DNA of 64,000 nucleotides, taken from the NCBI GenBank assembly GCA_000002435.2, contig CM018792.1. The stretch is one strand, 5' to 3'. This DNA comes from Giardia intestinalis. Lineage: Eukaryota. Each line of letters starts with the position of its first letter. Position 1 is the stretch's first letter. Below, piece after piece: positions 4,160 to 60,298 of the stretch. The notes under the pieces are model-generated. The model did no database searches and was not told where the DNA came from. It saw only the letters and a list, made by a program, of their open reading frames with translations. A program made the position numbers and the translations under genes.

Positions 4160-4182
4160 GTGCGCTTCCGGTCTCATAAAAA

Positions 4183-4959
4183 ATGGAGTCCGTATCTATG
4201 TCAAAGGACGTACTAATCGTTGGCTCTGACGGAGTAGAAGTTATAGTTCCAAAGCAGCTTGTGGCATGCTCCTTAGTTTTGCGGCGACAATCCATTTTGG
4301 GACCCATTACAATGTCATACACTGGAAAAGAGCTGTCCAGTGCAATAGCTACTTACATGGAATGTTTCTTGGCAGGGAAGCACCAGCAAATGGACCCTAG
4401 GGAGGCTGAAATATTAGAGGAAATGGGCCTGGGAGACGCGTCTACAGAGCAGCAACAGCAACAACACACCTGCCAAGCCACAGATCGGGAACCCAGCACT
4501 GGACAGAGATATTCACTTGGAGGTTGTCCCTATCACCACCAGACCCAGGAGATTACGTCATATAATGTTAACGATGCTAACGACATGGCGGATGTAACCA
4601 ATTTACCGACGATCACACTGGAAGAATTTCTGGCCAATGATGGGTCCGATGGCCGCAGACTTTGGATCTTGATAGACACAATAGTATTTGACGTGACAGA
4701 GTACCTTAATAAGCACCCTGGCGGAAGGGTTCCATTGCTAAATGGAGCCGGGAAGGACTCGACGCTGCAGTTCTATCAGCATCATGGCCGCAAGGGCAAC
4801 ACTAGACCGTTATTTAACCGCCTCAGATGCTTGGCAACGGGCCGTATGGACTCGTCCGACCTTCAGCGTGTGCCTGGATATCAAAAGATGAATGTAGAGG
4901 AGTGTGGTAATTCCTCCCTTAGAAAGCAGTTCCTTCAGTATTTTCATGTTGTAGAATGA
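4183..4959 (+). CDS. Cytochrome b5-like heme-binding domain protein with N-terminal extension
   Basis: C-terminal region ITLEEFLANDGSDGRRLWILIDTIVFDVTEYLNKHPGGRVPLLNGAGKDSTLQFYQHH matches the cytochrome b5 fold, including the HPGG heme-ligand motif and a second His. ATG preceded by aaaaa. Confidence 0.8.
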   Translation: MESVSMSKDVLIVGSDGVEVIVPKQLVACSLVLRRQSILGPITMSYTGKELSSAIATYMECFLAGKHQQMDPREAEILEEMGLGDASTEQQQQQHTCQATDREPSTGQRYSLGGCPYHHQTQEITSYNVNDANDMADVTNLPTITLEEFLANDGSDGRRLWILIDTIVFDVTEYLNKHPGGRVPLLNGAGKDSTLQFYQHHGRKGNTRPLFNRLRCLATGRMDSSDLQRVPGYQKMNVEECGNSSLRKQFLQYFHVVE

Positions 4960-4981
4960 ACACGCGGGCTTGTGCAGGCAT

Positions 4982-6238: not shown

Positions 6239-6399
6239 GAAAACTTTTAAAATCTCGCGTGATTTTTGAGCAGATTGGGTTGGTACCAGAAGATTTGATT
6301 TTAGTGGGTTTCTAATAATGTGCAATATTTAAATGGAAAGCTGCCACATGAGAATGAAAAAGACCTTCAGATGCAATATATAATTGAATTGAAAGAACA
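6239..6399. promoter_or_regulatory. Divergent (bidirectional) AT-rich initiator region between the CDF transporter and eIF2-gamma genes
   Basis: 161-bp AT-rich spacer separating two divergently oriented ATGs. Giardia promoters are short AT-rich initiator elements abutting the start codon (established knowledge). Confidence 0.3.
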
Positions 6400-7836
6400 A
6401 TGGCCGATTCCCTTGGAACCCTTCCGCTGACACCGATGTATCTCTCACAGCAACCATTTCTGAAGCCAGAAGAGCTCCACCCGACCCATCCTGACGTGAT
6501 TTCCCGTCAAGCAACGATTAACATAGGGACTATTGGCCACGTTGCTCACGGCAAGTCAACCCTCGTCAAGGCCATCACGGGGATCACCACCGGGCGCTTC
6601 CACTCAGAAATGGAAAGGAACATCACAATAAAGCTAGGATACGCAAACGCCAAGATATTCAAGTGTCCGAAGTGTCCGGAGCCCCACAACTACTTCCCCA
6701 CAAGCTCTAGCATGCCAGACAACAGTAAGTGCAAGATGTGCGGCTCTGTCGGAACGCTTGTTAGACACATTTCTTTCGTAGATTGCCCAGGACACGACTT
6801 TTACATGGCAACGATGCTTACTGGCGCCTGTGTCATGGATGCTGCTCTGCTGCTCATTGCAGCCGATCAGCCCTGCCCACAGAGCCAGACCAAAGAGCAC
6901 CTGGCGGCCATAGACATTGCAGGAATAACTAAGGCCGATAGAGTCATCATAGTACAGAATAAGATTGACCTCATTAAGGAGCAGGAGGCAAAGAGCCACC
7001 ATCAGCAGATAGTCAACTACCTGAACATATCGTTAAAAACCAAGAATCCCCACATCATCCCTACGTCCGCAGTGAGTGGATATAATGTTGACCTAGTGCT
7101 CCACCACATTGTGAACAAGCTCCCAATACCGAAGCGGGACCTTACGCTGCCGCCACTCTTCATGGTGATACGCTCCTTCGACGTCAACAAGCCGGGGTAT
7201 GACATCGATAACATTCGCGGCGGTGTTGCTGGTGGAACGCTTCTTCAAGGCATGTTTAAGCTGGGAGACACCGTGGAAATTCGCCCCGGATACACCATCA
7301 TGAATGAGAAGACTGGCAAGTGCTCGTGCTATCCCCTCATAACAAAGATTATCTCCATCAAGGCAGATGAGAACGAGCTGCGCTATGCCATCCCTGGTGG
7401 GCTCATCGCCATCGGCACCTTCATAGACCCCTCATACACGCGCCAGGACAGGCTGGTCGGGTCTGTAATAGGATATCCAGGACACATGCCCCCAATAAGG
7501 CTCAACATAACTATTTATTATGAACTGATGCACCAGCTAATCTCTGCCGTCAACACAAATAACACTAAGATAGCAGTATTAGCGGTGAACGAGGTTATTC
7601 TTTTCACAATAGGGAGCAACTCTGTTAGCGGAACTATTAAGGCCGTCAGGACTGTCAATGGTGTGGAGAAGATCGCGGATGTCGTAATGAATAAGCCCAT
7701 ATGCGCCAAGACTGGCGAGCAGATAGCAATTAGCAGAAAGATAGCAACCGGGGCCTCCAGAAGCTGGCGTCTGATAGGCTGGGGGAAGATTCAGGATAAT
7801 CCGGATTGGGAAAATCTCAATTCTACAGAAGCGTAG
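6400..7836 (+). CDS. EIF2S3: Translation initiation factor eIF2 gamma subunit
   Basis: GTPase G1 motif GHVAHGKSTL, G3 motif DCPGHD and G4 motif NKID. Internal zinc ribbon CPKCPEP...CKMCGS before the switch region. Domains II/III are conserved, e.g. GGVAGGTLLQGMFKLGDTVEIRPG. Confidence 0.9.
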   Translation: MADSLGTLPLTPMYLSQQPFLKPEELHPTHPDVISRQATINIGTIGHVAHGKSTLVKAITGITTGRFHSEMERNITIKLGYANAKIFKCPKCPEPHNYFPTSSSMPDNSKCKMCGSVGTLVRHISFVDCPGHDFYMATMLTGACVMDAALLLIAADQPCPQSQTKEHLAAIDIAGITKADRVIIVQNKIDLIKEQEAKSHHQQIVNYLNISLKTKNPHIIPTSAVSGYNVDLVLHHIVNKLPIPKRDLTLPPLFMVIRSFDVNKPGYDIDNIRGGVAGGTLLQGMFKLGDTVEIRPGYTIMNEKTGKCSCYPLITKIISIKADENELRYAIPGGLIAIGTFIDPSYTRQDRLVGSVIGYPGHMPPIRLNITIYYELMHQLISAVNTNNTKIAVLAVNEVILFTIGSNSVSGTIKAVRTVNGVEKIADVVMNKPICAKTGEQIAISRKIATGASRSWRLIGWGKIQDNPDWENLNSTEA

Positions 7837-7841
7837 GGTGC

Positions 7842-8711
7842 TCAAAGCTGTGCTATCAGGGCTCGCGCCTCGTGGCAGTATCCGCCTCCAAACATCAGTG
7901 CATGATTGAGCATGTGAAAGAGATTGTAAATAGGGACTTTTCTCTTAAACTCTGGACTGATGGGGAGAACGCTGCCGTAGTCTCGTAGAAAGTTGGAATC
8001 GAAGCCTCCAAAGAGCTGAGTCATTGCTAGATCCACCTCATTATCTCCATAGTAACACGCTGGATCGTATATGCAGGGCACCCCGCCGGATGAACCTGCG
8101 TTTCCTCCCCACAGATCGCCGTGTAACAGCATCGGCACAACAGATGATGCGAGAGTCAGCAACTGATCACGTACACGCTCCACTGCACCTTGTCTTGTAA
8201 CTCCCTTGGGGAGGACTTTACCAAGAGCCCCAGCGCTTTCGAGCTTGAGGAGAACGTCATTGATCCTGTGCTCTGCAAACCACTCTGGCCAGCCTTGGCT
8301 TGTCTGAGCGTTATCTAACTCCGTTGACCCACAGAAAGTCCTGCACGGAAAGCCAAACTTCTCTGCTACCGAGCCTTTATGCATGGCAGCAAGATGTCTT
8401 CCGAGACCAGATGTGTCTCCAGAGAGACCCTTGAGTTGCGTCATGAGAAGATATGACTTGCCATTAAAGGTACCCACTGAAATTGGGCGAGGACACAGTA
8501 CAGACCTTGTCTCCGAAATGGCCTTCAGCCCATGGTACTCTCCCCTGAATGCCAATTCAGCGTCAGGTCCACCAAGCTTAAGGAATAGAGGCTCCGGTGC
8601 ACGTATTGCATATGTTGATGAAAAGCAACTGCCGCTCATTTCACAAATAGAATCCGGCGTAATACCCTTGATTGATAAGCTATCCAGAAGATTGACCACA
8701 AGAGCGCTCAT
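7842..8711 (-). CDS. Fructosamine/ketosamine-3-kinase family (protein-kinase-like fold) protein
   Basis: LLHGDLWGGNAG matches the FN3K-family catalytic motif LLHGDLWSGN. 289 aa, ATG start. Its stop codon lies 5 bp from the eIF2-gamma stop (convergent pair). Confidence 0.65.
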   Translation of the reverse strand: MSALVVNLLDSLSIKGITPDSICEMSGSCFSSTYAIRAPEPLFLKLGGPDAELAFRGEYHGLKAISETRSVLCPRPISVGTFNGKSYLLMTQLKGLSGDTSGLGRHLAAMHKGSVAEKFGFPCRTFCGSTELDNAQTSQGWPEWFAEHRINDVLLKLESAGALGKVLPKGVTRQGAVERVRDQLLTLASSVVPMLLHGDLWGGNAGSSGGVPCIYDPACYYGDNEVDLAMTQLFGGFDSNFLRDYGSVLPISPEFKRKVPIYNLFHMLNHALMFGGGYCHEARALIAQL

Positions 8712-9888
8712 GGACTCTTAAAATTAACATTACTTTAACGCAGAGACCTTTAATACAGAGACTCGAACAGCGTGATAAACTTTAATCTGTACAAGTGTGT
8801 AGGGTATGCAAAGCGTGTCCAGGTTTGAAAGTTGTATGGAATTGGAGCTTTCAAGTATGGGTCAGACTTTCATTTGAAGCCCGTCATGGAGCTGGTTCAT
8901 TGGAAAACAGCAACTGTGTGTGTCGTGGCCAATGCAATCATGAGCCTCTAGCTGACCCTCTTTATTCTCAATACAGCATTGAAGCGTGCTTATCTATGTT
9001 AGAGAGTTGAGCCTATGCAATATGAGTGAAAGCTGTCTTGCTTTTTCCACTAGGTGCAAAGCTGTGGCACGGTTTCACACCTGGGCATACATCCTTTGTC
9101 AATGATAAGTGGATTCAGGCCGCGCGTGTTATCGGCCCTGTCTTCAAACCCGATGACACGAATGACCTGGATGCGCAAAGCTCATACAGACGCGTGATTC
9201 TGCCATAAGAGTGGTGATCCAGAAAGGAGTTTCAGGAAGGTTATTAAGGATATCGACAAAGTTGGGCCTACTAATCTATAAGCCAGAAAACGGAGATCAG
9301 CCCATAAAGGTAAGCCACACTGCATTTCCACGTCAGTGCTCTGTGAGGACTAAGGGCTAAGTGGTGTGGATACTTTTGGCAATCCCTTTACAACGAAGCA
9401 CCAAGAGTACTGAATTTCTGGGCCCTTGGAATCTATCCTGTTGACTCTGATGCATTCTAAGGGTGATTATGGTTGTGCAAGGTCTGCTTTTGTATGGTTT
9501 GCTATAGGACAATTAGACCATAGAATACTATATGCTGGGATAAAGCCGCTTACTGAAAATGGATAGAGCGGTATCCATGGCGTTGCCCACGTCGGCGCCC
9601 TGTTGCGAACCCCTTCCATACGTGATGACTGGTCTCCGCAACACGGCCTAGGGAGCGCGCGTTGGCCCTCCCATGTGCCCGTTCCCTAGGCCGTGTTACG
9701 GATACTGGCAAGCCAAGATGTGCGTATCGCTCGAGGCCAGTCGTCGCATATGGGAGGGGCATGCGATGGGGGCTCTTGCGCTGGAGGCAGCTGGTCTGAC
9801 AGAGGTCCGGGTGGACAACGTCCTGAGTTCTGGAATTCATTTGATTGAAGCGATAACTTCTTTGTTAGTTAAAGAATTTACATAATTA

Positions 9889-10641
9889 TCAATCTGGCAA
9901 TGCGTCATTTCTGAACCAAAGAGAGCCATTACCAACAATTAGTGGGTGACTCAACAAGTGCTTAAAAGAAAATTCATCGGCTAGTAGAAGACCGGTGAAA
10001 TTCTGATAGTGAGATAAGTTGACTAGTGACAACGCTAAGCTGAATCTGTCTATGTGTGGTATTCCAGTGACAGGATCTGAAAACGCACTGTAGCTGGACT
10101 CGTTTTTCATGGAGCTGCTGATTCCGACGTACCAACTCTCGCCCTGAAGAATATCAATGAACGACGCTGCGTGACACGAGTCAACAAGAATGCAGAGGTA
10201 GGTAAAGCGACCTGCACCTTTCAGCGCATAGAGCACTCGCTCGAGGCTTTGCTTGTAGAGGATTGAAGAGTCTTGGAACCGAATGAACCCGGGAGACCCG
10301 TGACCAGCAAAGTACAAGACAAGAGTGTCTACCTGCGGAAGCGAAGCAGTATCCCACAGCTCCACAGATAAAAAGCGCAGGAATCTCTCTGGGCTGAGTT
10401 CATGCGGATGTATCACTTGATGGATAGCGTTCCTAAAATTAGAGTTCAATTGGAGCCAGCTGTGAGTAGGATCGTTGGCATACAGCAGGATGCTTTTATC
10501 GATCAAACCACTATTCATCAAAGTGCTATCAATTGTGGCTATGTCTACGTAGTGACGACTGTCCCAAAAAGCCCTAGATGTGTCCACACCGAGCAAGACA
10601 GTGGTGGCACTTATAAAATTACAAACCATAAACCATAGCAT
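9889..10641 (-). CDS. GPI8: GPI-anchor transamidase catalytic subunit GPI8 (peptidase C13 family), short form without C-terminal TM
   Basis: Catalytic His region LVLYFAGHGSPGFIRFQD aligns to GPI8 YMTGHGG.GFLKFQD. Catalytic Cys region LCILVDSCHAASF aligns to FIIDTCQGASM. The N-terminal block FWDSRHYVDIATIDSTL aligns to FWFNYRHVANTLSVY of human PIGK. The ORF-track start at 10680 is TTG; the first ATG at 10641 gives signal peptide MLWFMVCNFISATTVLLG and is preceded by cttttattattcatt. Confidence 0.8.
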   Translation of the reverse strand: MLWFMVCNFISATTVLLGVDTSRAFWDSRHYVDIATIDSTLMNSGLIDKSILLYANDPTHSWLQLNSNFRNAIHQVIHPHELSPERFLRFLSVELWDTASLPQVDTLVLYFAGHGSPGFIRFQDSSILYKQSLERVLYALKGAGRFTYLCILVDSCHAASFIDILQGESWYVGISSSMKNESSYSAFSDPVTGIPHIDRFSLALSLVNLSHYQNFTGLLLADEFSFKHLLSHPLIVGNGSLWFRNDALPD

Positions 10642-46427: not shown

Positions 46428-47426
46428 ATGGAGCGGGCAGGGAGCCGAAGAGGGTCAGAAGATAAGCCCCGTGCACCTACGACAGCACGAGGAAAGCGTA
46501 TCATGAAAGAGAGGGAGCCCAAGATTGTTGAAAATAATAAGAATACAATCTTTCTTTCAGGCTCCACTGCCAACAAGGACTGCAACGATCTCTTGAGGGA
46601 TCTCCTCTCTATGCGCGCCCCAATGGGTGTGCGCAGAAGATTCAGAGATAGGGAGGCCAATCCCTTTGTAGACGCCAGTGAGCTCGAGTTTTTGTCGCAG
46701 CGGGTTGATTGCTCCCTGTTCTGCACGGGAACAAGCTCGAAGAAGCGGCCATCCAATATAGTTATTGGTCGGATGTTTGATGGACAGGTGCTGGACATGG
46801 TTGAGCTGGGTATTGACCTCTACCTAGGCTTGACTGACATACACTCACCAAAGCCCCAATTCGGGACGAAGCCGGCCCTGATCTTCGAGGGGGACCTGTG
46901 GAGCAATGACACGATATTCGAGGGGTGTAAGTCTATCCTCATGGACTTCTTCCGGGGCCCCACGATCACGGCCATGGCCCATGCATCTCTGCGCTACTGC
47001 CATGTCTTCTATGCGGTCGGGTCCGAAGACTTGCAGACGCGTCGCATCCTTATGCGCACCTATTACCTGTGCACGAGCCGCGAGCTAGAGGAGAAGGAGA
47101 ATGTCAAGAAGCTCCACCAGGAGAGCTGCGGGGGGATCACTATCATCCCCATGGGACCCAACGTCGACTTCACCCTCCGACGGACGCGGATCCTCGACCG
47201 CTCGGAGATGGCTGCGGCCATGCGCCGGCAGCGCGCCAAGAAGGACCCCTCGAAGGTCCCGGGCGTCAAGAACGCAGAGTACGACGAGCTCGGCCGCGAG
47301 TTCGGGACCGTCTACGTCGACCGCCAGGACCTCGACAAGCTCGGCCTGCGGCGCTTCAAGGGGCTCCGCCGCGACCGGTCCGAGAGCGGGGAGGAAGGCG
47401 ACGGAGAGGAGAGCGCCAGCGAGTAA
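46428..47426 (+). CDS. RPF2: Ribosome production factor 2 (RPF2), Brix-domain protein
   Basis: Brix-domain core CSLFCTGTSSKKRPSNIVIGRMFDGQVLDMVELGI matches the RPF2 consensus (SLF..G.HSKKRP.NL..GR.FD..LLDM.E.G). Basic, acidic C-terminal tail. Divergent from the EGF-like gene with a 29-bp spacer. Confidence 0.7.
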   Translation: MERAGSRRGSEDKPRAPTTARGKRIMKEREPKIVENNKNTIFLSGSTANKDCNDLLRDLLSMRAPMGVRRRFRDREANPFVDASELEFLSQRVDCSLFCTGTSSKKRPSNIVIGRMFDGQVLDMVELGIDLYLGLTDIHSPKPQFGTKPALIFEGDLWSNDTIFEGCKSILMDFFRGPTITAMAHASLRYCHVFYAVGSEDLQTRRILMRTYYLCTSRELEEKENVKKLHQESCGGITIIPMGPNVDFTLRRTRILDRSEMAAAMRRQRAKKDPSKVPGVKNAEYDELGREFGTVYVDRQDLDKLGLRRFKGLRRDRSESGEEGDGEESASE

Positions 47427-47482
47427 ACTGGAGCAGGGACGTATGGGTATATGTCTGTTTCTCGCCCTGGGAGGGGACCGCT

Positions 47483-47564
47483 GGCGCTATGGCCGAGTGG
47501 TTAAGGCGGTTGACTCGAAATCAACTGTGCTCCGCACGCGTGGGTTCGAATCCCACTGGCGCCG
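47483..47564 (+). tRNA. tRNA-Ser (anticodon CGA)
   Basis: GGCGCTA-TG-GCC-GAGTGGTTAA-GGC-G-GTTGA-CTCGAAA-TCAAC-[14-nt variable arm TGTGCTCCGCACGC]-GTGGG-TTCGAAT-CCCAC-TGGCGCC-G. Class II tRNA, 82 nt. Confidence 0.85.
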
Positions 47565-47619
47565 CTTGGCCCCGTAACAGCGCCCTCCACGCGCGTCCTG
47601 GCCGGAGCGGGCGGACGAC

Positions 47620-47693
47620 GCTCGTGTGGCGCAGCTGGTTAGCGCGTGTGACTTATGATCACGAGGTCGAGGGTTCGAGCCCCTCCTCGAGCA
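47620..47693 (+). tRNA. tRNA-Ile (anticodon UAU), intronless
   Basis: GCTCGTG-TG-GCGC-AGCTGGTTA-GCGC-G-TGTGA-CTTATGA-TCACG-AGGTC-GAGGG-TTCGAGC-CCCTC-CTCGAGC-A. D-arm and anticodon arm almost identical to vertebrate tRNA-Ile-UAU exons. One U6:U67 mismatch in the acceptor stem. Confidence 0.75.
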
Positions 47694-47695
47694 GT

Positions 47696-48121
47696 TTACT
47701 TCTGCGCCGCAACCACGTTGACGACCTCGACAAGGAGCCCCTCCTGCAGCTGGGCCCGGACGCAGCAGCGGCAGGGGCGCGTGGCTGGCACGCAGAAGAC
47801 CTCGCGGTAGAGCTCGTTGAAGCGGGCCTCCTCACTGTCGCTGAGAGACGTGGACAGGAAGATGTTGAGCGAAACGATATAGTCCAGACCAGAGTTGGCA
47901 TACTCTAGACACTTTCGGATGTTATCGAAGGTCTGACGCGTCTGCTCCTCGAGACCCTTGTGAAGAGTCCCAGACTTGTCGATGCCCACGGACCCGCCGA
48001 GGTAGACCATCCCGTTAACCACGGCTATCTGGCCGACGTTCTCGAACTTCACCACGTCTGGGCAGACAAGAAACGTAGGCGTGGGCATCCCTAAGTTTTT
48101 AGAAAGAATGCCATAAATCAT
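47696..48121 (-). CDS. RidA/YjgF/L-PSP family reactive-intermediate deaminase
   Basis: GQIAVVNGMVYLGGSVGIDKSGTL...EEQTRQTFDNIRKCLEYANSGLDYIVSLNIFL...VFCVPATRPCRCCVRAQLQEGLLVEVVNVVA matches the RidA fold, including the conserved Arg/Glu catalytic region. The ORF-track start is TTG; a first ATG at 48121 (MIYGILSKNLG) or at 48088 (MPTPTF) is possible. Confidence 0.75.
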   Translation of the reverse strand: MIYGILSKNLGMPTPTFLVCPDVVKFENVGQIAVVNGMVYLGGSVGIDKSGTLHKGLEEQTRQTFDNIRKCLEYANSGLDYIVSLNIFLSTSLSDSEEARFNELYREVFCVPATRPCRCCVRAQLQEGLLVEVVNVVAAQK

Positions 48122-48499
48122 AAACAATATATAGATTTATAATGATAGATTCGCTGTGGTACCGACCGCAAAAACCTTACTAGAAGATAGAGCAACGCTT
48201 ACCTCTGGAGTAGTGATGCTGCGGCGCTCTATTCACAATCAGAAGAATCGCGCTGACAACCTTATCGACACCGGTTATATACTGCAGCATTCCCCCATAT
48301 CCAGTTAAATTGAAAGTCTGGTCTTGGCGACATAACTATAGCTGAAGGCCTACTCTGAAGATATAGGCTAATAAGTGACGGGATTCAAACTCTATCTAGA
48401 CCTCACGGTGTGATAGAATGAGGGCCTAAGGGATATCTTATTAAATATAAGACAGAAATCCATCAGTAACTTTAGACTGAGCGGCTTAAATCTTAAAAC

Positions 48500-51377: not shown

Positions 51378-53189
51378 CTACGCCTTCCCCCTGCAGAGGA
51401 ACCACCAGCAGAGGAAGCCCACGAGGCCCCCCACGACGACGACCACAGCGACGGAGATCCCCGCGATGGCGCCTGTGCTGAGGCCGCTCCTGTTGGCGCC
51501 AGAGGACACACACTTACCACCCTCCAGACTGTACCCATCACTGCACTCCCCACACACATCATCCATCACACAGCTCTTGCAATCACCCACAGAGCATGTC
51601 ACACACCCACTGCCGTCCTTGTTGGGCTTCCTATCACTGTCACAGGAGGTACACACAGCGGGGGTCATGCCAGCATCAGATGGAGCTGTTGGGGCTGTAC
51701 ACTGTGAACAGCCATCCACCCCCACGTATGCCTTCTGACCAGCCAGCTCGACACCAAGGGGGTTCCCACAGGAGAGGACAGACTGCTTGTCCTTGGTGGG
51801 CGAGGGAGGGATGAAGTACCCAGCTGCCGCCTCTGTGCAGACACCATCACCTGCCTTTGTGCACATGGACTTACCCGGCTGAGCTGATATACTATAACAA
51901 CCACCCATGTATAGGAAGTATCCCATAGTACATGATGTGCAGACATTATTGACACATCCTGTATTGCCTTTAGCCTCACTAGCACAGAGACCATCAATAG
52001 GGAACTCACTGTCCTTTCCACAGTAAGAACAGTAGTGAAGCTCCTTCCCTGTGTTGTCGATTACTATTGCATCACAGGCTCCAGATGTCCCACCACAGGC
52101 CGTGGGGTCTTCACACACCTTTGTACACGTGACCCCAGTTGAAGGTTCTCCACTGGGTCTGTAGTTCACCTTGCATTTTGTGCACTTAAATGTGCCACTA
52201 TTTGTGCACTCGGCACACCCCTCGATGCCACCTTTGGTTGTGTCACTACATGAGATGCACTCACCAGAGGAGCTATCCTTCAAGAAGTACCCTTGCTTAC
52301 ATGTCAGGCACTTACTCGGATCTTCCTTCTTGGAGCATGTCGCACAGCCTGGAGCGCACGGATCGCACGCAAAACCCCCACCGTTAGTATTCTCGATGTA
52401 TCCCTCCAGGCATTTTGAACAGGTTGGCGGATTTCCTGCCGTCTTCTCACATATGCTGCACCCGGCAATGCCCTTATCATTTACGCCAGCATCAGGGGAC
52501 GCATCGCCGCAAAGAGCACACGTTTTGTCCTCCTTCATAAATAAGGCCCCGTCAGCGCCCTTGCACCCGTCAAGCGTTTTATCGACGCAGGTCGATGTCC
52601 CGTCGAGGGCCGTCCTGGGGGTCTTATTGGTCCCGCAGTTAGTGCACTTCGGCTTCCCCGTGGTCTTGTCGAAGGAGCATGCCGTGCAATCTGCGTGTAT
52701 CTCACTGCATGCTTTGCAGGTCATTGTTAGCTCGTCTGCATACTGATTGTTCTCACACGTATTAGAGCATGAGTTATCTGACTTCAGATAGGTCCCCGGC
52801 TTGCATGTCTCACAGTTGGTCGCACCGGCCCCGGTACATGTGGCACAGTTCTGATTGCATGGCTTGCAAAGCTTATCGCTCAGGAAGTATCCATCTTGGC
52901 AGGTACTACATGTAGCTGCTCCTGCACTCTGTGGTGCCTGACACTGTGCGCAGTTATCCACTCCCATGACCCCGTCTCTCTGTGTAGTATCAGAGCAGAG
53001 GATGCACTCGTTGCCAGGGGCTACTGGGCTGGCCGGGTTCTGGAATAGATACGCGGCGCCTGCCTTGCAGGTGGTGCACACTCCCTTGTCGGCCGCCGTG
53101 CATATCTCGTTGCCAGGATCTTGTCCTACCTTGTAGCACCCGCCCATGAAGAGGAGTCCCACACCATCACTATCACCCCCACACCACAC
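51378..53189 (-). CDS. Variant-specific surface protein (VSP) family ORF, apparently 5'-truncated (no signal peptide/ATG), possible pseudogene
   Basis: CXXC-rich throughout, two GGCY motifs, and the C-terminal TM plus invariant tail GGLVGFLCWWFLCRGKA. The frame opens with GTG only 41 bp past the upstream VSP stop. The first in-frame ATG (53157, MGGCYKV) has no signal peptide. Confidence 0.55.
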   Translation of the reverse strand: MWCGGDSDGVGLLFMGGCYKVGQDPGNEICTAADKGVCTTCKAGAAYLFQNPASPVAPGNECILCSDTTQRDGVMGVDNCAQCQAPQSAGAATCSTCQDGYFLSDKLCKPCNQNCATCTGAGATNCETCKPGTYLKSDNSCSNTCENNQYADELTMTCKACSEIHADCTACSFDKTTGKPKCTNCGTNKTPRTALDGTSTCVDKTLDGCKGADGALFMKEDKTCALCGDASPDAGVNDKGIAGCSICEKTAGNPPTCSKCLEGYIENTNGGGFACDPCAPGCATCSKKEDPSKCLTCKQGYFLKDSSSGECISCSDTTKGGIEGCAECTNSGTFKCTKCKVNYRPSGEPSTGVTCTKVCEDPTACGGTSGACDAIVIDNTGKELHYCSYCGKDSEFPIDGLCASEAKGNTGCVNNVCTSCTMGYFLYMGGCYSISAQPGKSMCTKAGDGVCTEAAAGYFIPPSPTKDKQSVLSCGNPLGVELAGQKAYVGVDGCSQCTAPTAPSDAGMTPAVCTSCDSDRKPNKDGSGCVTCSVGDCKSCVMDDVCGECSDGYSLEGGKCVSSGANRSGLSTGAIAGISVAVVVVVGGLVGFLCWWFLCRGKA

Positions 53190-53230: not shown

Positions 53231-56200
53231 TCACGCCTTCCCTCTACAGATGAACCACCAGCAGAGGAACCCTACGAGGCCCCCCACGACGACGACCACA
53301 GCCACGGAGATCCCCGCGATGGCACCTGTGCTGAGGCCGCTCTTGTTGACGCTTCCGCCGGTGTTGTCGCCGTCTGTTTTGATATAGCAGGTGACAGGAC
53401 CGCCATTGCCACCAGCTGGCGGGGCGCAGCTTACGCAATTAGCGACACCAGTGATTTGGTTGTTATTTCCACTACTAGCTGTACATTTGAAGCATTTATC
53501 ACCGGCACCTTTGTAGTATCCAGGAAGGCATTCAGTGCAGGCATTAGAATCATTGCATTTTGCACAGCCTTCAGAGCACTCCGGACACTTCTCTTGCACA
53601 GGTGCCTGGTTATTTGCAGCACACATAGTGCACTTTCCGTTACTAGCGAGCGTGCAAACCGATTTGCCAGGAAGCTTAGCCACACCATAGCACCCGCCCG
53701 ACATGAGAGTATACTCTCCTGCACATTTGGTGCACTTGCCATCTGCCGCCGTGCATACGCTCGCGTCTCTCCCGGCAGCTGCCACCGTTGTACAAATTCC
53801 GTCGATCGGGGCGTACCCGTCCTTGCACTGAGCACAGTACTTCGCGCCCCCCACGTTAGCCGTGCACTGCCCGTCTGCACAGTTGGTAATGAACGCACCA
53901 GTGCACTCCTTGACGCATGTTCCGGCTGTGCCAGATCCATACAGGAGAGAATACCCGGGATAGCAGGCCGTGCAGGAAGCAGCGTTTGCATCGCCGTTGC
54001 ATTCTGCACACGTAGCATGGCAGGAAGCACAGACACTGACTCCGTTAATATTATCGGCATATGTTCCAGCAGGACAGTTGTCCAAGCATGCATTGCCCGA
54101 AGGAGTAAGCCGCTTGTCTGTACACTCGGAGCACACAACCGTCGATTCTGCTTCTCCAGAGAGCGTTTTGAGGGCACACTTTTTGCAGCCTGTGATGCCG
54201 TGGGTTGCGTCGCTGCATGAGAGGCACATCCCCTTCGAGTCACCGGCCTTCTCTCTAGTGAAGTGCGTCTTATCGGAGGTGCACTCTTCGGCAGTAAGGC
54301 ACGCTCCCGATTGCCCAGCTGCAGACTCTGGCTTTAGATACCGTCCCTCTTTACAGCCAGTGCACTTGTCGGCCTGGTTCGTCATGGCGTTCTCGGTGCA
54401 TCCGTCGCAGCTGGAGTGGCACCCCGGCGTGGCGGCGGGGCATTTCCCGTTCTCTGGTGGTGCGCCGGTACTGCATCTAGCGCAGACATCATTCTGATCG
54501 CATCGTTCACAGTTAGCATCTGAGCAAGAGAAGCACTGCGTACCTGCAGTATTAGGCTTTTGGCCTTCTGCACACTTCTTGCACTCCTTTGCGTCGGAAA
54601 CGCTGTCGTCGGTGTAGTAGCCCGCGCTCCCCTGGCAGTCGACCGCGCTGACGCACGTCCCCGTCGGGTCGCTGGGATTCGTCTTCTTCAGGTAGGGCGC
54701 GGCGCCGTTTGCGTCGCATTTGGTGCACTTATCGGCCGTTCCAGCACACGCCGTGCAAGGGGCGTTGCACTTCTTGCACTCCTTTGCGTCGGAAACGCTG
54801 TCGTCGGTGTAGTAGCCCGCGCTCCCCTGGCAGTCGACCGCGCTGACGCACGTCCCCGTCGGGTCGCTGGGATTCGTCTTCTTCAGGTAGGGCGCGGCGC
54901 CGTTTGCGTCGCATTTGGTGCACTTATCGGCCGTTCCAGCACACGCCGTGCAAGGGGCGTTGCACTTCTTGCACTCCTTTGCGTCGGAAACGCTGTCGTC
55001 GGTGTAGTAGCCCGCGCTCCCCTGGCAGTCGACCGCGCTGACGCACGTCCCCGTCGGGTCGCTGGGATTCGTCTTCTTCAGGTAGGGCGCGGCGCCGTTT
55101 GCGTCGCATTTGGTGCACTTATCGGCCGTTCCAGCACACGCCGTGCAAGGGGCGTTGCACTTCTTGCACTCCTTTGCGTCGGAAACGCTGTCGTCGGTGT
55201 AGTAGCCCGCGCTCCCCTGGCAGTCGACCGCGCTGACGCACGTCCCCGTCGGGTCGCTGGGATTCGTCTTCTTCAGGTAGGGCGCGGCGCCGTTTGCGTC
55301 GCATTTGGTGCACTTATCGGCCGTTCCAGCACACGCCGTGCAAGGGGCGTTGCACTTCTTGCACTCCTTTGCGTCGGAAACGCTGTCGTCGGTGTAGTAG
55401 CCCGCGCTCCCCTGGCAGTCGACCGCGCTGACGCACGTCCCCGTCGGGTCGCTGGGATTCGTCTTCTTCAGGTAGGGCGCGGCGCCGTTTGCGTCGCATT
55501 TGGTGCACTTATCGGCCGTTCCAGCACACGCCGTGCAAGGGGCGTTGCACTTCTTGCACTCCTTTGCGTCGGAAACGCTGTCGTCGGTGTAGTAGCCCGC
55601 GCTCCCCTGGCAGTCGACCGCGCTGACGCACGTCCCCGTCGGGTCGCTGGGATTCGTCTTCTTCAGGTAGGGCGCGGCGCCGTTTGCGTCGCATTTGGTG
55701 CACTTATCGGCCGTTCCAGCACACGCCGTGCAAGGGGCGTTGCACTTCTTGCACTCCTTTGCGTCGGAAACGCTGTCGTCGGTGTAGTAGCCCGCGCTCC
55801 CCTGGCAGTCGACCGCGCTGACGCACGTCCCCGTCGGGTCGCTGGGATTCGTCTTCTTCAGGTAGGGCGCGGCGCCGTTTGCGTCGCATTTGGTGCACTT
55901 ATCGGCCGTTCCAGCACACGCCGTGCAAGGGGCGTTGCACTTCTTGCACTCCTTTGCGTCGGAAACGCTGTCGTCGGTGTAGTAGCCCGCGCTCCCCTGG
56001 CAGTCGACCGCGCTGACGCACGTCCCCGTCGGGTCGCTGGGATTCGTCTTCTTCAGGTAGGGCGCGGCGCCGTTTGCGTCGCATTTGGTGCACTTATCGG
56101 CCGTTCCAGCACACGCCGTGCAAGGGGCGTTGCACTTCTTGCACTCCTTTGCGTCGGAAACGCTGTCGTCGGTGTAGTAGCCCGCGCTCCCCTGGCAGTC

Positions 56201-56842
56201 GACCGCGCTGACGCACGTCCCCGTCGGGTCGCTGGGATTCGTCTTCTTCAGGTAGGGCGCGGCGCCGTTTGCGTCGCATTTGGTGCACTTATCGGCCGTT
56301 CCAGCACACGCCGTGCAAGGGGCGTTGCACTTCTTGCACTCCTTTGCGTCGGAAACGCTGTCGTCGGTGTAGTAGCCCGCGCTCCCCTGGCAGTCGACCG
56401 CGCTGACGCACGTCCCCGTCGGGTCGCTGGGATTCGTCTTCTTCAGGTAGGGCGCGGCGCCGTTTGCGTCGCATTTGGTGCACTTATCGGCCGTTCCAGC
56501 ACACGCCGTGCAAGGGGCGTTGCACTTCTTGCACTCCTTTGCGTCGGAAACGCTGTCGTCGGTGTAGTAGCCCGCGCTCCCCTGGCAGTCGACCGCGCTG
56601 ACGCACGTCCCCGTCGGGTCGCTGGGATTCGTCTTCTTCAGGTAGGGCGTGTTGCCGTTTGCGTCGCATTTGGTGCATTTTTTCCCAGTTGAATCGCATT
56701 CAGCGCAACCATCGATCGATGGACTGCATGCATCAGCCAGTGCGACTGCAAAAATCAAACCAATTCCTACCAACATTGAGGCCAGAAGCTGGCACAGCAC
56801 CGCTCTGGTTTGCATTAAGAGGCGCACGGGATCCTGCTTCAT
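53231..56842 (-). CDS. Variant-specific surface protein (VSP) containing ~11 tandem 65-aa repeats
   Basis: Signal-like N-terminus (..MQTRAVLCQLLASMLVGIGLIFAVALADA), CXXC-rich ectodomain, GGCYG motif, and C-terminal TM plus CRGKA tail. The ORF-track start is TTG; plausible ATG starts are 56890, 56842 (MKQDP) or 56815 (MQTRAV), and the exact start is uncertain. Internal 65-aa repeat unit KCDANGAAPYLKKTNPSDPTGTCVSAVDCQGSAGYYTDDSVSDAKECKKCNAPCTACAGTADKCT. Confidence 0.8.
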   Translation of the reverse strand: MKQDPVRLLMQTRAVLCQLLASMLVGIGLIFAVALADACSPSIDGCAECDSTGKKCTKCDANGNTPYLKKTNPSDPTGTCVSAVDCQGSAGYYTDDSVSDAKECKKCNAPCTACAGTADKCTKCDANGAAPYLKKTNPSDPTGTCVSAVDCQGSAGYYTDDSVSDAKECKKCNAPCTACAGTADKCTKCDANGAAPYLKKTNPSDPTGTCVSAVDCQGSAGYYTDDSVSDAKECKKCNAPCTACAGTADKCTKCDANGAAPYLKKTNPSDPTGTCVSAVDCQGSAGYYTDDSVSDAKECKKCNAPCTACAGTADKCTKCDANGAAPYLKKTNPSDPTGTCVSAVDCQGSAGYYTDDSVSDAKECKKCNAPCTACAGTADKCTKCDANGAAPYLKKTNPSDPTGTCVSAVDCQGSAGYYTDDSVSDAKECKKCNAPCTACAGTADKCTKCDANGAAPYLKKTNPSDPTGTCVSAVDCQGSAGYYTDDSVSDAKECKKCNAPCTACAGTADKCTKCDANGAAPYLKKTNPSDPTGTCVSAVDCQGSAGYYTDDSVSDAKECKKCNAPCTACAGTADKCTKCDANGAAPYLKKTNPSDPTGTCVSAVDCQGSAGYYTDDSVSDAKECKKCNAPCTACAGTADKCTKCDANGAAPYLKKTNPSDPTGTCVSAVDCQGSAGYYTDDSVSDAKECKKCNAPCTACAGTADKCTKCDANGAAPYLKKTNPSDPTGTCVSAVDCQGSAGYYTDDSVSDAKECKKCAEGQKPNTAGTQCFSCSDANCERCDQNDVCARCSTGAPPENGKCPAATPGCHSSCDGCTENAMTNQADKCTGCKEGRYLKPESAAGQSGACLTAEECTSDKTHFTREKAGDSKGMCLSCSDATHGITGCKKCALKTLSGEAESTVVCSECTDKRLTPSGNACLDNCPAGTYADNINGVSVCASCHATCAECNGDANAASCTACYPGYSLLYGSGTAGTCVKECTGAFITNCADGQCTANVGGAKYCAQCKDGYAPIDGICTTVAAAGRDASVCTAADGKCTKCAGEYTLMSGGCYGVAKLPGKSVCTLASNGKCTMCAANNQAPVQEKCPECSEGCAKCNDSNACTECLPGYYKGAGDKCFKCTASSGNNNQITGVANCVSCAPPAGGNGGPVTCYIKTDGDNTGGSVNKSGLSTGAIAGISVAVVVVVGGLVGFLCWWFICRGKA
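54571..56692. repeat. Tandem array of ~11 copies of a 195-bp unit (10 copies identical at nucleotide level, terminal copies slightly divergent)
   Basis: Exact 195-bp periodicity is visible directly. For example, gttgcacttcttgcactcctttgcgtcggaaacgctgtcg recurs at 54741, 54936, 55131 and so on. Ten identical 64-aa minus-strand sub-ORFs at 195-bp steps in the ORF track confirm this. Confidence 0.95.
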
Positions 56843-59800
56843 GTCACGGAATTCAATGGAACACAGCGGCCAACGGAAGCGAGGGCACATCCTCAAGCTA
56901 CACCGGAGACCCGTTAATGCAGCATCCGCCCTCAACAAGCACGACTGAGGAAGCCCAGCGCTGGCTTTCCTTGCTCTGAGAAGGCATAAGTGTATACATA
57001 GATAATGAGTGCATCCATTGCTACATTAACCCAGCTGGCGCTTGTAGCCCTTGACATCCGTAGCCACCGTGTCCTGTAATCTGTCTGATTGCCTGAGTGA
57101 CCATCGTGGGGGACACAGCGATCGTGATGCTCATGGAGTGGCATGGGGCCGGCTCTAGGATCACGCCGCCATCCGGGCAGACGCGCACCACAGAAAGCCT
57201 CTTGTTGCCACCGTCCGAGGCTCACAGGATTGCAGGGCTCAGGGAGCCTCTGTCCCATCAGCGAGACTGGCCTCGCCCGACGCCTCCAGCACTCTGCCAA
57301 TAGCTGGCGGACAAGCGTGCACAATAGCTTTGGACGGAGGGTACAAGGGACAGCAAAACAAGACAGTCAAGTAGGCGTTGACGGTACAAACACTGCCAGC
57401 CCTCAGTCAGAGAGCAGGCATCTGGGAAAGGTGAGGGTTGCTTGTTACTCTACACCTTAACGGCCAGGCTCAACAGTAGTCACTGTTTGAGAGCTCCATT
57501 TGAAAGCACTGTAGATGAGACTCTCTGCCTTCCTGGATGTTGATCCCAAGAATGTGCTGCCTGATTGTTTGTCTCTGCATCGGAGTCGTTGCTAACGGCC
57601 GTCCTGGTGCAGCAAGGGGCCCATACAAGAACCATGTGCCGGGCACTACTCAAGAACAGAACAGATATCGTTGCTACTCATAGGCTTAGACCGATTTTCC
57701 GAAGCGACAGATGTCAAGGGCAAGGACGGGGCCTGTTTCCGAGTCCCTAATTCGAGAGTTTGTGTGAGGACCACAGCACTCTGTTAGACCTTCCTGGAAG
57801 AGGACATCCACACATATCCTTGACTCCAATCCACGTCAAAGAACGCCCAGCGGCTGCCATAGCAGTTGGGCAATGCCATCACTCCTTGCTCAGAGCTACC
57901 CATCGTTGGTGATAAGCAGCTAGCGACAGGGAAAAGCTTCTTTAGACTTCTGATTGCGCCTCAACGTTTTCAAGTCCCCCCTATCGTTTTGCTGAGCCCA
58001 TGTTTCGCTGGTCTGGTGTGCTTGTATCCGTTCCAAAGCATGCTTGAAGTGGCGGCCAAGTGCTAGGCTTCATGTAGTTACCTCAGGCCACAGTGCTCGT
58101 GCGCAATAAGCAGAGTCTCCGGTCCACTGGCCACTGCTCTTGCTGCTCGTAAGCCTGCTCAGTGAGTGGCTATGGCAGGATCCTCCGCAAATGCGTATCT
58201 TTTGATACTTATTTCCATGTGCACAGAGGCAGGTGCACTGTAACTAGTCAAGGCGCCTGCTGCTCAGCCTCCTCGCCGTGGGGGTCTACTGCATACCCCT
58301 TCAGCAGATATTGATTAATGTGCCAGATACAACTACATCCTCAGACTGTCAACTGTGCATGTAGAAGTTTCAGGCCATCCTCTAGCACTGTTCCAATGCC
58401 GCAGAATCTGGATGGGACATCCCGACTACAAGCGCAGCGCAAGGCTAGCGCATTATGTCCGGCACTCTCTTACATTGCAGTTGGCTCCGGCGGCTATTGC
58501 CCTGGACTTACGTTTGGAGATAGGATGATCTGTACCCATCAGTGTGGATGAGCCATTGTCAACCATCGCAGAGACGCTCAGAGTCAACGTAGGCCACACA
58601 TTGATAAGCCGTAATGGATTGCTGGGCAGTCGTAGTACCCGGCAGCGCGCCTTATGGAGCTGTGGCAAGTGAATACGCTGACTTCCGATTCGCCTATCCA
58701 TTAGGGTCCAGACACTTCAAATGGATATGCAGTATATGCTAGCCACGGTTCAGACTGCCAGCTGCATGGATCCTGTGACTGGCCATTAGACATCTTTACT
58801 GTGGTTGTAACACAGTGAAGTGGTACTATATACGCTTGCTGGCGATCATCCGCTATGCACAAATGTACCCGTCGGAGGCCAGTGTATCGGTCACTTTCTG
58901 CTGCGAAGGGAATGCTTAGCCGCTAGCACAGCCGATTCTCTACACCCTACTGATGGCTGTTTTGCGTATATCAGGCTTGGTATCCGCAAGCGAAGTATCC
59001 AGTTAGCAACAGACCAGGGTTATGTTCATCGGAGCAGATGATCAAGCACCAGAGCTGGATTGTCAAGTCCCAGAAGGTGCCACCTCTTCTGGAACGCCCC
59101 TACAAAAACAAGAACCCGACAGCGGAGTTGTGAGGAACTCGAAGTAAGGTCGATCAGGGCACTCTCCTGGGTTCGATGCCATGTTGATTCTAAGGTCTCA
59201 GATGATACAGGAACGCAAAGAATGGCCTCCGCAGCACGCCAAGATTGTGTCATGGAAAGAGCTTCGAAGACTACTGCTCGCTTCATGGACTCTCTTACGA
59301 GTATCCTATGCATCTCTAATAAGGATGAGACGTCCAGCTTAGCATGGATTCCACTACGGTGTCTAAGACAGAATCTGCAAGGGGGTCACTCATCACTATC
59401 TTTCTAATGTATCACTCACTGAAGACCGAGTTCCTATCATAAAGGGCCGAGGAAGAATGACAATAGAATCCATGCAATAGCGCCTGCATAGTTCATTCAG
59501 GGATGAAATTCCAACCTTGGGCCATTTGCCTTTTGACGCTCTCTGTGGATCCCTGAGGAACCTGTGAAGAGGGATGCATTACATAGAAATGATGCTAAGT
59601 AAGCTCGTGGTAACAATTCAATGAAGGCGCCCAAGACAACAAAAAGCGCACCCTCGTCAGCCAGGCAGATCGAGATCACTCCGCAGCCGAAACAACGACT
59701 GTGTGGGGATTCACGTGGGGATTGGAGGCGTGTGCTCGCTAGTACAACATCACGCTCTAACTGGTTGATGCTTCTGAAGCGGGGAAGGAGCACTCTTGGA

Positions 59801-59920
59801 AGACCGTAGTGTCAGAGGTGCAGTACTACAGGCCATAGGTGAGAGTCCCAGCAACACAGCATTTAAAGTATCGATAAGCGATGGAAATATCAGCTTTTAA
59901 AAAGGGAGTATAGATTCAAT

Positions 59921-60298
59921 ATGGGGGACAATAGGCTATCTGTGGAGAATACGTACCAGTTAGGACCAGAAGAGCCCCTCACGCGCTTGGCTATCAGGCC
60001 TCTGGTTCAGAAGGCTCTACAGAAGCAGTTTTTGAATTGGACATATGACGCTAAAACTGGGGCATCCAAGAGCCGCGACACTTGCGCAATGATACAGAAT
60101 TACATAAATGATAGTGCAGTTGTTCCGCCTCGCTACAAGGTTATGGTTCAAGTATTTATTGTACCTCTCAAAGGGCAATGCGTCCGGCTTGCTACGCGTT
60201 CCGTCTGGGAACCGTCCACAGACAATTTGGTCAGCGAAACGTTCACTGGCCGTGATTACGCTGCAACTGCCCTTGTTTTTTACACATATAATGAGTGA
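59921..60298 (+). CDS. Tctex1-family dynein light chain (DYNLT-like)
   Basis: C-terminal half KYKVMVQVFIVPLKGQCVRLATRSVWEPSTDNLVSETFTGRDYAATALVFYTY matches the Tctex1 fold consensus (YK..v.v.i.q..g.g....s.c.WD...D......). ATG preceded by cagcttttaaaaagggagtatagattcaat. Confidence 0.55.
   Translation: MGDNRLSVENTYQLGPEEPLTRLAIRPLVQKALQKQFLNWTYDAKTGASKSRDTCAMIQNYINDSAVVPPRYKVMVQVFIVPLKGQCVRLATRSVWEPSTDNLVSETFTGRDYAATALVFYTYNE

What the first reader, a model, noticed from the sequence alone, without database searches (positions are those of the whole stretch)
56950..59900. ~3-kb ORF desert between the VSP pair and the Tctex1 gene
No frame on either strand exceeds ~130 codons across ~2.95 kb. 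Elsewhere in this window intergenic spacers are typically 5-400 bp. In this compact genome such a gap is unusual. It could be a decayed pseudogene or retroelement remnant, a long non-coding transcript, or a VSP-associated recombination-prone spacer.
Basis: seen in the sequence. Interest (0 to 1): 0.5.

Follow-up and report, generated by a model that had tools for sequence, protein, structure and literature searches.

The report
Non-coding spacer upstream of Giardia vspA6
The 3-kb gene-free stretch is real, but it is the long, neutrally evolving non-coding spacer that typically flanks Giardia surface-antigen (VSP) genes, here lying between vspA6/CRP170 and the Tctex-1 gene, so it is an ordinary example of a published genome feature.

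Summary
The ORF desert exists. Its true extent is 56777-59920 (3,144 bp), from the ATG of vspA6/CRP170 (minus strand, ATG at 56776 with the VSP initiator CAATGTT) to the ATG of Tctex-1 (59921, plus strand). I found no sign of coding: stop density and longest open frame match shuffled sequence, and codon usage equals shuffled. Six-frame Pfam, a 5.8-billion-protein search, tblastn with neighbouring and G. muris genes, Rfam, tRNA and intron-motif scans all found nothing.

The same layout (VSP, then 2.4-3.7 kb without ORFs, then Tctex-1) occurs in assemblages AII (DH), E (P15) and B (GS), so it is not an assembly chimera. WB 57292-59860 aligns to P15 at about 71%, close to the 74% identity of four-fold degenerate sites, and indels are not multiples of three. 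That is neutral DNA older than the A/E split.

The VSP-proximal 520 bp is not shared with P15. It contains a 236-bp repeat (57062-57297) that also sits beside another VSP. AI-AII divergence falls from 7.6% next to the VSP to 0.6% next to Tctex-1.

Published work already reports gene-poor, GC-richer VSP flanks (mean 2.1 kb, 53.9% GC; here 53.7%). Verdict: already known, low interest. Transcription was not tested.

The parts
56777..59920 (.). The whole non-coding head-to-head spacer (3,144 bp, 51.8% GC) between vspA6 (minus strand) and Tctex-1 (plus strand)
   Evidence: no ORF above 130 aa, stop density and codon usage like shuffled sequence, and the largest gap in the window (median gap 92 bp).
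53231..56776 (-). vspA6 / CRP170 / vsp67: signal peptide, 99 bp, then 10.8 identical 195-bp repeats (54573-56677), then a 1.3-kb unique part ending in CRGKA
   Evidence: The description of vspA6 in PMC2996952 matches: 99 bp followed by 195-bp repeats.
56770..56780 (-). VSP initiator element PyAATGTT (TCAATGTTGG on the minus strand) around the ATG at 56776
   Evidence: Sequence. The consensus is given in PMC2996952 and PMC3610916.
51378..53189 (-). Second VSP of a two-gene head-to-tail array, 41 bp downstream of vspA6. It has no signal peptide at its first ATG, so it is probably a pseudo-VSP array member.
   Evidence: Array features are described in PMC2996952 and PMC7000408.
56777..57061 (.). 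VSP-proximal unique segment. It has no homology with P15 and is the fastest-diverging part between AI and AII (about 7%).
57062..57297 (.). A 236-bp dispersed repeat associated with VSP genes. A copy 88% identical (90-91.5% to the AII orthologues) lies about 70 bp beyond the 3' end of a different 747-aa VSP, in the opposite relative orientation, in three assemblies. One of these is from the same ENA sample (ERZ27317378) as L020.
   Evidence: proteins P0081-P0083; loci L026-L028.
57292..59860 (.). Ancestral spacer, orthologous to the P15 (assemblage E) spacer. Identity is about 66-78% (overall 71%), and the sequence is evolving neutrally.
   Evidence: identity 0.710 over 2,632 aligned columns; 47 of 55 indels are not multiples of three. 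One search gives four-fold site identity of 0.737.
58100..58221 (.). An imperfect hairpin of about 120 nt, partly kept in P15 with 3 compensatory pairs, 6 broken pairs and a 24-nt loop insertion. This is a weak candidate only.
   Evidence: With 200 shuffles z is -2.7 (minus strand) and -1.85 (plus strand), which does not survive correction for about 150 windows.
59117..59117 (.). The position where twelve k=31 Logan contigs from AI and AII read sets all end. Longer-k and long-read assemblies run through it. It also roughly marks the drop in AI-AII divergence.
59861..59920 (+). AT-rich core promoter of Tctex-1 (28% GC). It is the only part of the spacer conserved in assemblages A, E and B.
   Evidence: GC. 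(20-nt exact WB/P15 run at 59882-59901). (GS versus P15, 84% over the last 44 bp).
59921..60298 (+). Tctex-1 family (dynein light chain) gene, identical to XP_001707736.1 of G. intestinalis WB

Best explanation
[quoted passage not shown] It is shared head-to-head with the housekeeping Tctex-1 gene. I could identify functional sequence only at the two ends: the VSP initiator at the vspA6 ATG, and a roughly 60-bp AT-rich core promoter for Tctex-1. The interior is unconstrained DNA and is composite. About 520 bp next to the VSP travels with the VSP; it is absent from the orthologous P15 locus and includes a 236-bp repeat found beside another VSP. The remaining roughly 2.6 kb is an old single-copy spacer that predates the A/E split and drifts at the synonymous rate. 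How it works, by inference: it has no sequence-specific role. It persists because VSP loci sit at synteny breakpoints where VSP bodies are repeatedly replaced by recombination. Compaction is not enforced there, and the spacer passively separates a fast-turning-over, variably expressed VSP from a conserved housekeeping gene. Shown here: non-coding status, orthology, neutral rate, composite structure, divergence gradient. Inferred: passive persistence and a buffering role.
For: Non-coding status. No known RNA family. Identity of the flanking genes. Same architecture in DH (L019), ENA contig L020, P15 (L017) and GS-B (L013), all ORF-free and with no genes called by annotators apart from one 106-aa ORF annotated in GS-B (L013). 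WB/P15 spacer identity of 0.71 against four-fold site identity of 0.737, with 47 of 55 indels not multiples of three, and no conserved block beyond chance (longest exact run 24 nt, simulated 95th percentile 27). VSP plus proximal 520 bp not homologous to P15, with the homology boundary (57292) meeting the end of the 236-bp repeat (57297). AI-AII divergence of 7.6% falling to 0.6% across the spacer, with the part left of 59117 at 4.3-4.8% against 1.4-1.5% on the right (Fisher 5e-6 and 8e-5), and 0.8% in flanking genes. Literature: the first vsp of an array has 'an extended noncoding region upstream' plus an initiator (PMC2996952). Regions around VSPs are gene-poor with higher allelic variation (PMC7000408). 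VSP intergenic regions have median 1,280 and mean 2,131 nt against 79 and 392 genome-wide, and the 2-kb VSP upstream averages 53.9% GC (bioRxiv 10.1101/2022.03.07.483299). Here the figures are 3,144 nt and 53.7%.
Against: No expression, chromatin or small-RNA data were available, so a regulatory or transcribed role is not excluded. The neutral-rate estimate rests on one diverged comparison (P15). The two AII sequences (DH, L020) share most of their differences and are not independent. One hairpin (58100-58221) shows three compensatory changes. The cause of the recurrent contig break at 59117 is unexplained. The spacer has kept a similar size (2.4-3.7 kb) in A, B and E despite neutral sequence drift, which could hint at selection on length or on a spacing function.
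Confidence: 0.75

Rival explanations
1. The spacer is the fully decayed remains of ancestral protein-coding genes. In G. muris, three genes occupy the interval between the orthologue of the 788-aa gene and Tctex-1: a 144-aa gene with a V-ATPase-related domain, a 978-aa gene and a 921-aa ankyrin gene. These would have been lost in G. intestinalis when a VSP took over the locus. This concerns origin and is compatible with the best explanation.
For: G. muris locus L010 has about 7.4 kb with three genes where G. intestinalis has VSPs plus the spacer. The right-hand synteny (Tctex-1, CDP-alcohol phosphatidyltransferase, PCIF1_WW) and the left-hand 788-aa orthologue are conserved.
Against: There is no tblastn similarity of these three proteins to the WB, DH, P15 or GS spacers, even at E<=5 on a tiny database. 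There are no Pfam domains in any frame and no codon-usage trace.
Confidence: 0.2
2. The spacer is functional non-coding DNA. It could be a long non-coding RNA or small-RNA source, or an epigenetic control or insulator region involved in mutually exclusive VSP expression.
For: The position and size of the spacer are kept in assemblages A, B and E. One hairpin is partly conserved with three compensatory pairs. The bioRxiv preprint 10.1101/2022.03.07.483299 argues that VSP 'promoter' regions are larger and under epigenetic control.
Against: Sequence evolves at the synonymous rate, with no block conserved beyond chance. Nothing is alignable with assemblage B except the Tctex-1 core promoter. Rfam found nothing at E<=1. 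Mean fold z-score over 152 windows is 0.06. The hairpin is not significant after multiple testing and was not found in the supplementary files held for the Argonaute small-RNA paper.
Confidence: 0.1
3. The spacer is a remnant of a non-LTR retroelement (GilM, GilT or GilD) or another transposable element.
For: Retroelement relics lie between some head-to-head VSP pairs (PMC7000408 Table 2; bioRxiv preprint). The spacer does contain one 236-bp dispersed repeat.
Against: There is no reverse-transcriptase, endonuclease or other Pfam domain in six frames. A k=141 contig assembles straight through the spacer, so it holds no long repeat. Most of it is single-copy and orthologous between A and E at neutral divergence. 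No terminal or tandem repeats were found.
Confidence: 0.04
4. The stretch is an assembly chimera or mis-join at a VSP locus.
For: Twelve k=31 contigs end at exactly 59117, and VSP repeats are known to collapse in assemblies (PMC2996952).
Against: The same continuous sequence appears in the DH NCBI contig, an ENA k=141 contig, one Logan contig that passes 59117, and colinearly in P15.
Confidence: 0.01

Closest known systems
Gene-poor, GC-richer intergenic flanks of Giardia VSP genes (Adam et al. 2010, PMC2996952; Xu et al. 2020, PMC7000408; bioRxiv 10.1101/2022.03.07.483299)
   Same: It lies upstream of the first, initiator-bearing vsp of a linear array. Its length is far above the genome median. 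GC over the 2 kb upstream is 53.7% against the published 53.9%. It has no genes, and variation is higher near the VSP.
   Different: At 3.1 kb it is longer than the published mean (2.1 kb).
The 2-4 kb non-coding DNA between inverted identical VSP pairs (for example vsp1267)
   Same: Similar size, and a non-coding spacer next to VSP 5' or 3' ends.
   Different: Here the partner gene is a housekeeping gene rather than a duplicated VSP. There is no inverted duplication and no reverse-transcriptase relic.
Subtelomeric and internal antigen-gene flanks in other parasites (Plasmodium var upstream regions, Trypanosoma VSG 70-bp-repeat regions). This comparison is from my own knowledge.
   Same: A long non-coding 5' flank of a variant surface antigen gene at a recombination-prone locus.
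   Different: No conserved upstream sequence class (such as upsA/B/C) or repeat array was found here, only one 236-bp dispersed repeat. The Giardia spacer interior shows no sequence constraint.

Membership tests
Giardia VSP-flanking gene-poor intergenic region | Directly adjoins a bona fide VSP gene (CXXC-rich, CRGKA tail, initiator PyAATGTT at the ATG) | tested here: met
   vspA6 ends in CRGKA and CAATGTT sits at 56776. It matches the published vspA6 layout.
Giardia VSP-flanking gene-poor intergenic region | Length far above the genome-wide intergenic length (median 79, mean 392 nt; VSP flanks median 1,280, mean 2,131 nt) | tested here: met
   The gap is 3,144 bp against a window median of 92 bp.
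Giardia VSP-flanking gene-poor intergenic region | Elevated GC in the 2 kb upstream (published mean 53.9%) | tested here: met
   53.7% over 56777-58776, against 47.9% in the non-VSP ORFs of the window.
Giardia VSP-flanking gene-poor intergenic region | Higher sequence variation than the surrounding genome | tested here: met
   Between isolates, 4.3-4.8% left of 59117 against 0.8% in flanking genes and 2.46% at four-fold sites. Within-isolate allelic variation could not be tested.
Decayed protein-coding pseudogene | Frameshifted or fragmentary similarity to a known protein or domain | tested here: not met
   The only hits of the longest open frame are spurious short ORFs called over copies of the same 236-bp DNA repeat, plus one weak match (E 3e-5, 30% identity) to a 704-aa repetitive Ser/Thr-rich protein that I read as low-complexity noise.
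Decayed protein-coding pseudogene | Residual codon bias or three-base periodicity of substitutions and indels | tested here: not met
   Codon log-likelihood is -0.029 against -0.019 for shuffled sequence and +0.123 for coding. Of the WB/P15 indels, 47 are not multiples of three and 8 are.
Non-LTR retroelement remnant (GilM/GilT/GilD) | Reverse-transcriptase or endonuclease domain remnant | tested here: not met
   Six-frame Pfam at E<=1 returned 0 families.
Non-LTR retroelement remnant (GilM/GilT/GilD) | Nucleotide similarity to Gil element consensus sequences | not testable with these tools
   No Giardia repeat library or whole WB genome was reachable.
Known structured RNA gene or long non-coding RNA | Match to an RNA family, or significant conserved secondary structure | tested here: not met
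   Rfam at E<=1 found none and ARAGORN found none in the region. Mean fold z is 0.06. The one hairpin is inconclusive.
Known structured RNA gene or long non-coding RNA | A discrete transcript | not testable with these tools
   No RNA-seq data were available.
Spliced gene | Giardia intron branch/acceptor motif CTRACACRCAG | tested here: not met
   No match in 56777-59920 with up to 1 mismatch. The six matches elsewhere in the window are at chance level.

The most novel reading that the evidence does not exclude
The spacer may not be mere filler. Its length could be maintained in assemblages A, B and E because it acts as an insulator or chromatin domain that lets vspA6 be silenced and switched without disturbing the adjacent housekeeping promoter. 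It might also yield a small RNA from the partly conserved hairpin at 58100-58221. A linked reading concerns the break near 59117. It is seen both in k=31 assemblies of a dozen isolates and as a step in AI-AII divergence, and it could mark a recombination or haplotype boundary of an allelically heterozygous vspA6 domain.
Probability: 0.08. Interest if true: 0.55.

Novelty: already known. Interest (0 to 1): 0.15.

Why it matters
It matters little as a discovery, because long gene-poor VSP flanks in Giardia are already published. The locus is still a clean worked example of three points. Such a flank can be old: it is shared by assemblages A and E and is positionally present in B. It is free of sequence constraint. 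And only the VSP plus about 0.5 kb of proximal DNA turns over. That helps anyone defining VSP 'cassette' boundaries, designing knock-ins at vspA6, or choosing neutral sites in a very compact genome. It also warns annotators not to force gene models into such gaps.

Tried and rejected
1. VSP pseudogene. A 22-nt inverted match between 58214-58235 and the neighbouring VSP suggested one. Neither tblastn with both local VSPs nor the Pfam VSP model found anything, so I treat the match as chance.

2. Six-frame homology. A concatenate of all 71 stop-free segments of at least 30 aa was searched against 5.8 billion proteins and gave 0 hits. Three exact look-ups of desert ORFs in the contig index found nothing or were not on record.

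3. Full HMMER library search. It rejected the frame with stops and the concatenate. The longest open frame alone hit only three short ORFs, plus one weak match (E 3e-5) to a low-complexity repeat protein. The three short ORFs turned out to be called over copies of a 236-bp DNA repeat, not a protein family.

4. Depletion of AT-rich promoter-like 10-mers. The rate is 1.3 per kb against 28 per kb in other intergenic DNA, which looked striking. Base composition explains it: 15% of dinucleotide shuffles are as low, and the P15 spacer is not depleted.

5. Conserved non-coding islands between WB and P15. The longest exact run (24 nt) and the best 50-column identity (0.92) are within simulation.

6. 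tRNA-like B-box GGTTCGATGCC at 59170-59180. No T-arm pairing forms, and ARAGORN and Rfam are negative.

7. Upstream region of a P15 vspA6-like gene (L025). It has no similarity to the WB proximal flank.

8. The WB paralogue P0017 was not on record, and Yang & Adam 1994 is not held in the library.

9. Bacterial-type promoter and terminator scans are at chance level and are irrelevant for this eukaryote.
Full report
**What is there**

The window is Giardia intestinalis WB (assemblage AI). The 125-aa protein at 59921-60298 is identical to XP_001707736.1, a Tctex-1 family protein.

[quoted passage not shown] It has a signal peptide (MLVGIGLIFAVALA), then 99 bp, then 10.8 perfect copies of a 195-bp repeat (54573-56677), and it ends in CRGKA. 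This is the published layout of vspA6 / CRP170 / vsp67 (PMC2996952).

Its ATG is at 56776, inside the VSP initiator consensus PyAATGTT (CAATGTT). The gene-free stretch therefore runs from 56777 to 59920, which is 3,144 bp.

A second VSP (51378-53189) follows vspA6 after 41 bp and lacks a signal peptide. The pair is a head-to-tail 'linear array', and the desert is the 5' flank of its first member.

**Checking the observation**

- The longest ORF with a start codon is 130 aa, and the longest stop-free run is 142-144 aa.
- Shuffles of the same sequence give a longest run of 134 +/- 27 aa, and 30% of them reach the observed value.
- Stops are spread over all six frames, 32-49 per ~993 codons.
- None of 254 other 3,144-bp windows in the 64 kb is this empty.
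- The median gap between long ORFs is 92 bp.

**Is anything encoded?**

- A codon-usage log-likelihood trained on 24 genes of the window gives +0.123 for coding windows. The desert scores -0.029 and shuffled desert -0.019. No desert window passes the shuffled 95th percentile.
- Six-frame translations hit no Pfam family at E<=1.
- A concatenate of all 71 stop-free segments of at least 30 aa hit nothing among 5.8 billion proteins. That database does contain Giardia proteomes.
- tblastn with every long ORF of the window found nothing above chance. The same held for the genes that occupy this position in G. muris and in another Giardia-like genome.
- Rfam at E<=1 and ARAGORN found nothing in the region.
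- The Giardia intron acceptor motif is absent.
- Annotators and gene callers put no gene in the corresponding gap in DH, P15 or an ENA contig, and only a 106-aa ORF in GS-B.

**Comparison with other genomes**

The arrangement is minus-strand VSP, then an ORF-free stretch, then Tctex-1. It recurs as follows:

| Genome | Locus | ORF-free stretch |
|---|---|---|
| DH (assemblage AII) | L019 | 2.9 kb, 95.8% identical to WB |
| ENA k=141 contig | L020 | 96.6% identical to WB |
| P15 (assemblage E) | L017 | 3.7 kb |
| GS-B (assemblage B) | L013 | 2.4 kb |

This rules out an assembly chimera.

WB 57292-59659 aligns colinearly with P15 at 66-71% identity, while the flanking genes align at 83-85%. In a global alignment, identity is 0.71 over 2,632 columns, and 47 of 55 indels are not multiples of three. 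Identity at 783 four-fold degenerate sites of four flanking genes is 0.737. The interior therefore drifts at about the neutral rate. No block is conserved beyond simulation.

With assemblage B, nothing aligns except the last ~45 bp before the Tctex-1 ATG. That stretch belongs to a 60-bp, 28%-GC segment that I interpret as the Tctex-1 core promoter.

In G. muris, three genes occupy the interval between the orthologue of the 788-aa gene and Tctex-1: 144 aa, 978 aa and a 921-aa ankyrin protein. The VSP locus therefore sits at a synteny breakpoint, as reported in general for Giardia multigene families (PMC7000408).

**Composite structure**

The VSP bodies and the first ~520 bp upstream of vspA6 have no counterpart at the P15 locus.

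Within that proximal part, the longest open frame of the desert gave three hits in the full HMMER library. These proved to be short spurious ORFs called over DNA homologous to window 57001-57297.

One of them lies at a different locus in assemblage AII genomes. There, a 236-bp copy (88% identical to WB 57062-57297) sits about 70 bp beyond the 3' end of another 747-aa VSP, in the opposite relative orientation. One of these contigs comes from the same ENA sample (ERZ27317378) as L020.

The end of this repeat (57297) coincides with the start of P15 homology (57292). The desert is therefore a VSP-linked module of about 0.5 kb plus an older spacer of about 2.6 kb.

**Divergence gradient and the 59117 break**

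AI-AII differences fall steadily from 7.6% per 331 bp next to the VSP to 0.6% next to Tctex-1 (Spearman -0.80 for L020). Left of 59117 the rate is 4.3-4.8%, and right of it 1.4-1.5% (Fisher 5e-6 and 8e-5). Flanking genes show 0.8% and four-fold sites 2.46% (13/528). DH and L020 share most of their differences, so they amount to one comparison rather than two.

Separately, twelve Logan k=31 contigs from different AI and AII read sets all stop at exactly 59117. A k=141 contig, the DH contig, P15 and one Logan contig run through that position; the Logan contig carries extra SNPs at 59079-59110.

I could not determine the cause. The two candidate explanations are a short repeat of 31-140 nt, or allelic heterozygosity of the VSP-proximal domain. 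Xu et al. report more allelic variation around VSPs, and allelic repeat-number variation is documented for vspA6 (PMC2996952).

**Comparison with what is known**

- Adam et al. [quoted passage not shown]
- Xu et al. 2020 state that 'regions around VSPs tend to be gene-poor' with higher allelic variation.
- A 2022 preprint quantifies this. VSP intergenic regions have median 1,280 and mean 2,131 nt, against 79 and 392 genome-wide, and the 2-kb VSP upstream averages 53.9% GC. The present spacer is 3,144 nt, with 53.7% GC over its VSP-proximal 2 kb.

All testable defining features of this class are met. The features of a pseudogene, retroelement remnant, spliced gene or known RNA are not.

**Leads that did not hold up**

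- The scarcity of AT-rich promoter-like 10-mers is explained by base composition.
- A hairpin at 58100-58221 stood out in a fold scan. It scores z -2.7 and -1.85 with 200 shuffles. In P15 it keeps 25 of 31 pairs, with three compensatory changes, six broken pairs and a loop insertion. That is too weak to claim, and it was not found in the small-RNA supplement searched.

**Verdict**

The best explanation (confidence 0.75) is a passive, neutrally evolving, composite VSP flank, with functional sequence only at its two ends. Its possible origin from decayed ancestral genes (0.2) is compatible with this but leaves no trace. A regulatory or RNA role (0.1) would need expression and chromatin data.

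The kind of feature is already known, and interest is low.

Noticed in passing
window 54573-56677: vspA6 carries 10.8 perfectly identical 195-bp repeats here. The literature gives about 22-23 copies, and the DH (AII) orthologue has roughly one. This could be allelic or isolate copy-number variation, or assembly collapse.
   Followed up: partly
window 51378-53189 (-): The second VSP of the array has no signal peptide at its first ATG (MGGCYKVGQ...) and lies 41 bp after the vspA6 stop codon. It is probably a pseudo-VSP or recombination cassette as described for array members.
   Followed up: partly
window 59117: Twelve Logan (k=31) contigs from different AI and AII sequencing runs all end at this exact base, while longer-k and long-read assemblies pass through. 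The cause is unknown; a short repeat elsewhere in the genome or allelic heterozygosity are the candidates.
   Followed up: partly
window 57062-57297; L026 8144-8379, L027 4648-4883, L028 1505-1740: A 236-bp dispersed repeat (88-91% identity) is found upstream of vspA6, and also about 70 bp downstream of a different 747-aa VSP in the opposite relative orientation. Gene callers place spurious 76-149-aa ORFs over it.
   Followed up: yes
window 58100-58221: An imperfect hairpin of about 120 nt, partly conserved in P15 with three compensatory pairs. It is not statistically secure.
   Followed up: partly
L010 (G. muris) 3286-9959: G. muris has three genes (144 aa, 978 aa and a 921-aa ankyrin protein) where G. 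intestinalis has the VSP array plus the spacer. The locus is a synteny breakpoint between Giardia species.
   Followed up: partly
L026 3458-8000: Another gene-poor stretch of about 4.5 kb lies next to a VSP in an assemblage A genome. It contains only short called ORFs, including an 87-aa ankyrin fragment that may be a decayed ankyrin-repeat gene.
   Followed up: no
window 59170-59180: GGTTCGATGCC matches the tRNA B-box consensus GGTTCGANNCC, but no T-arm can be paired and ARAGORN and Rfam are negative. It is probably chance.
   Followed up: partly
window 51848-51869 and 58214-58235: A 22-nt inverted match (95%) links the second VSP and the spacer. There is no extended similarity at DNA or protein level, so it is probably chance.
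   Followed up: yes
window 47427-48499: The second-largest class of gap in the window (about 1.07 kb, 53% GC) adjoins tRNA-Ser (47483-47565) and tRNA-Ile (47620-47693), which lie among overlapping mechanical ORFs at 46428-47908.
   Followed up: no
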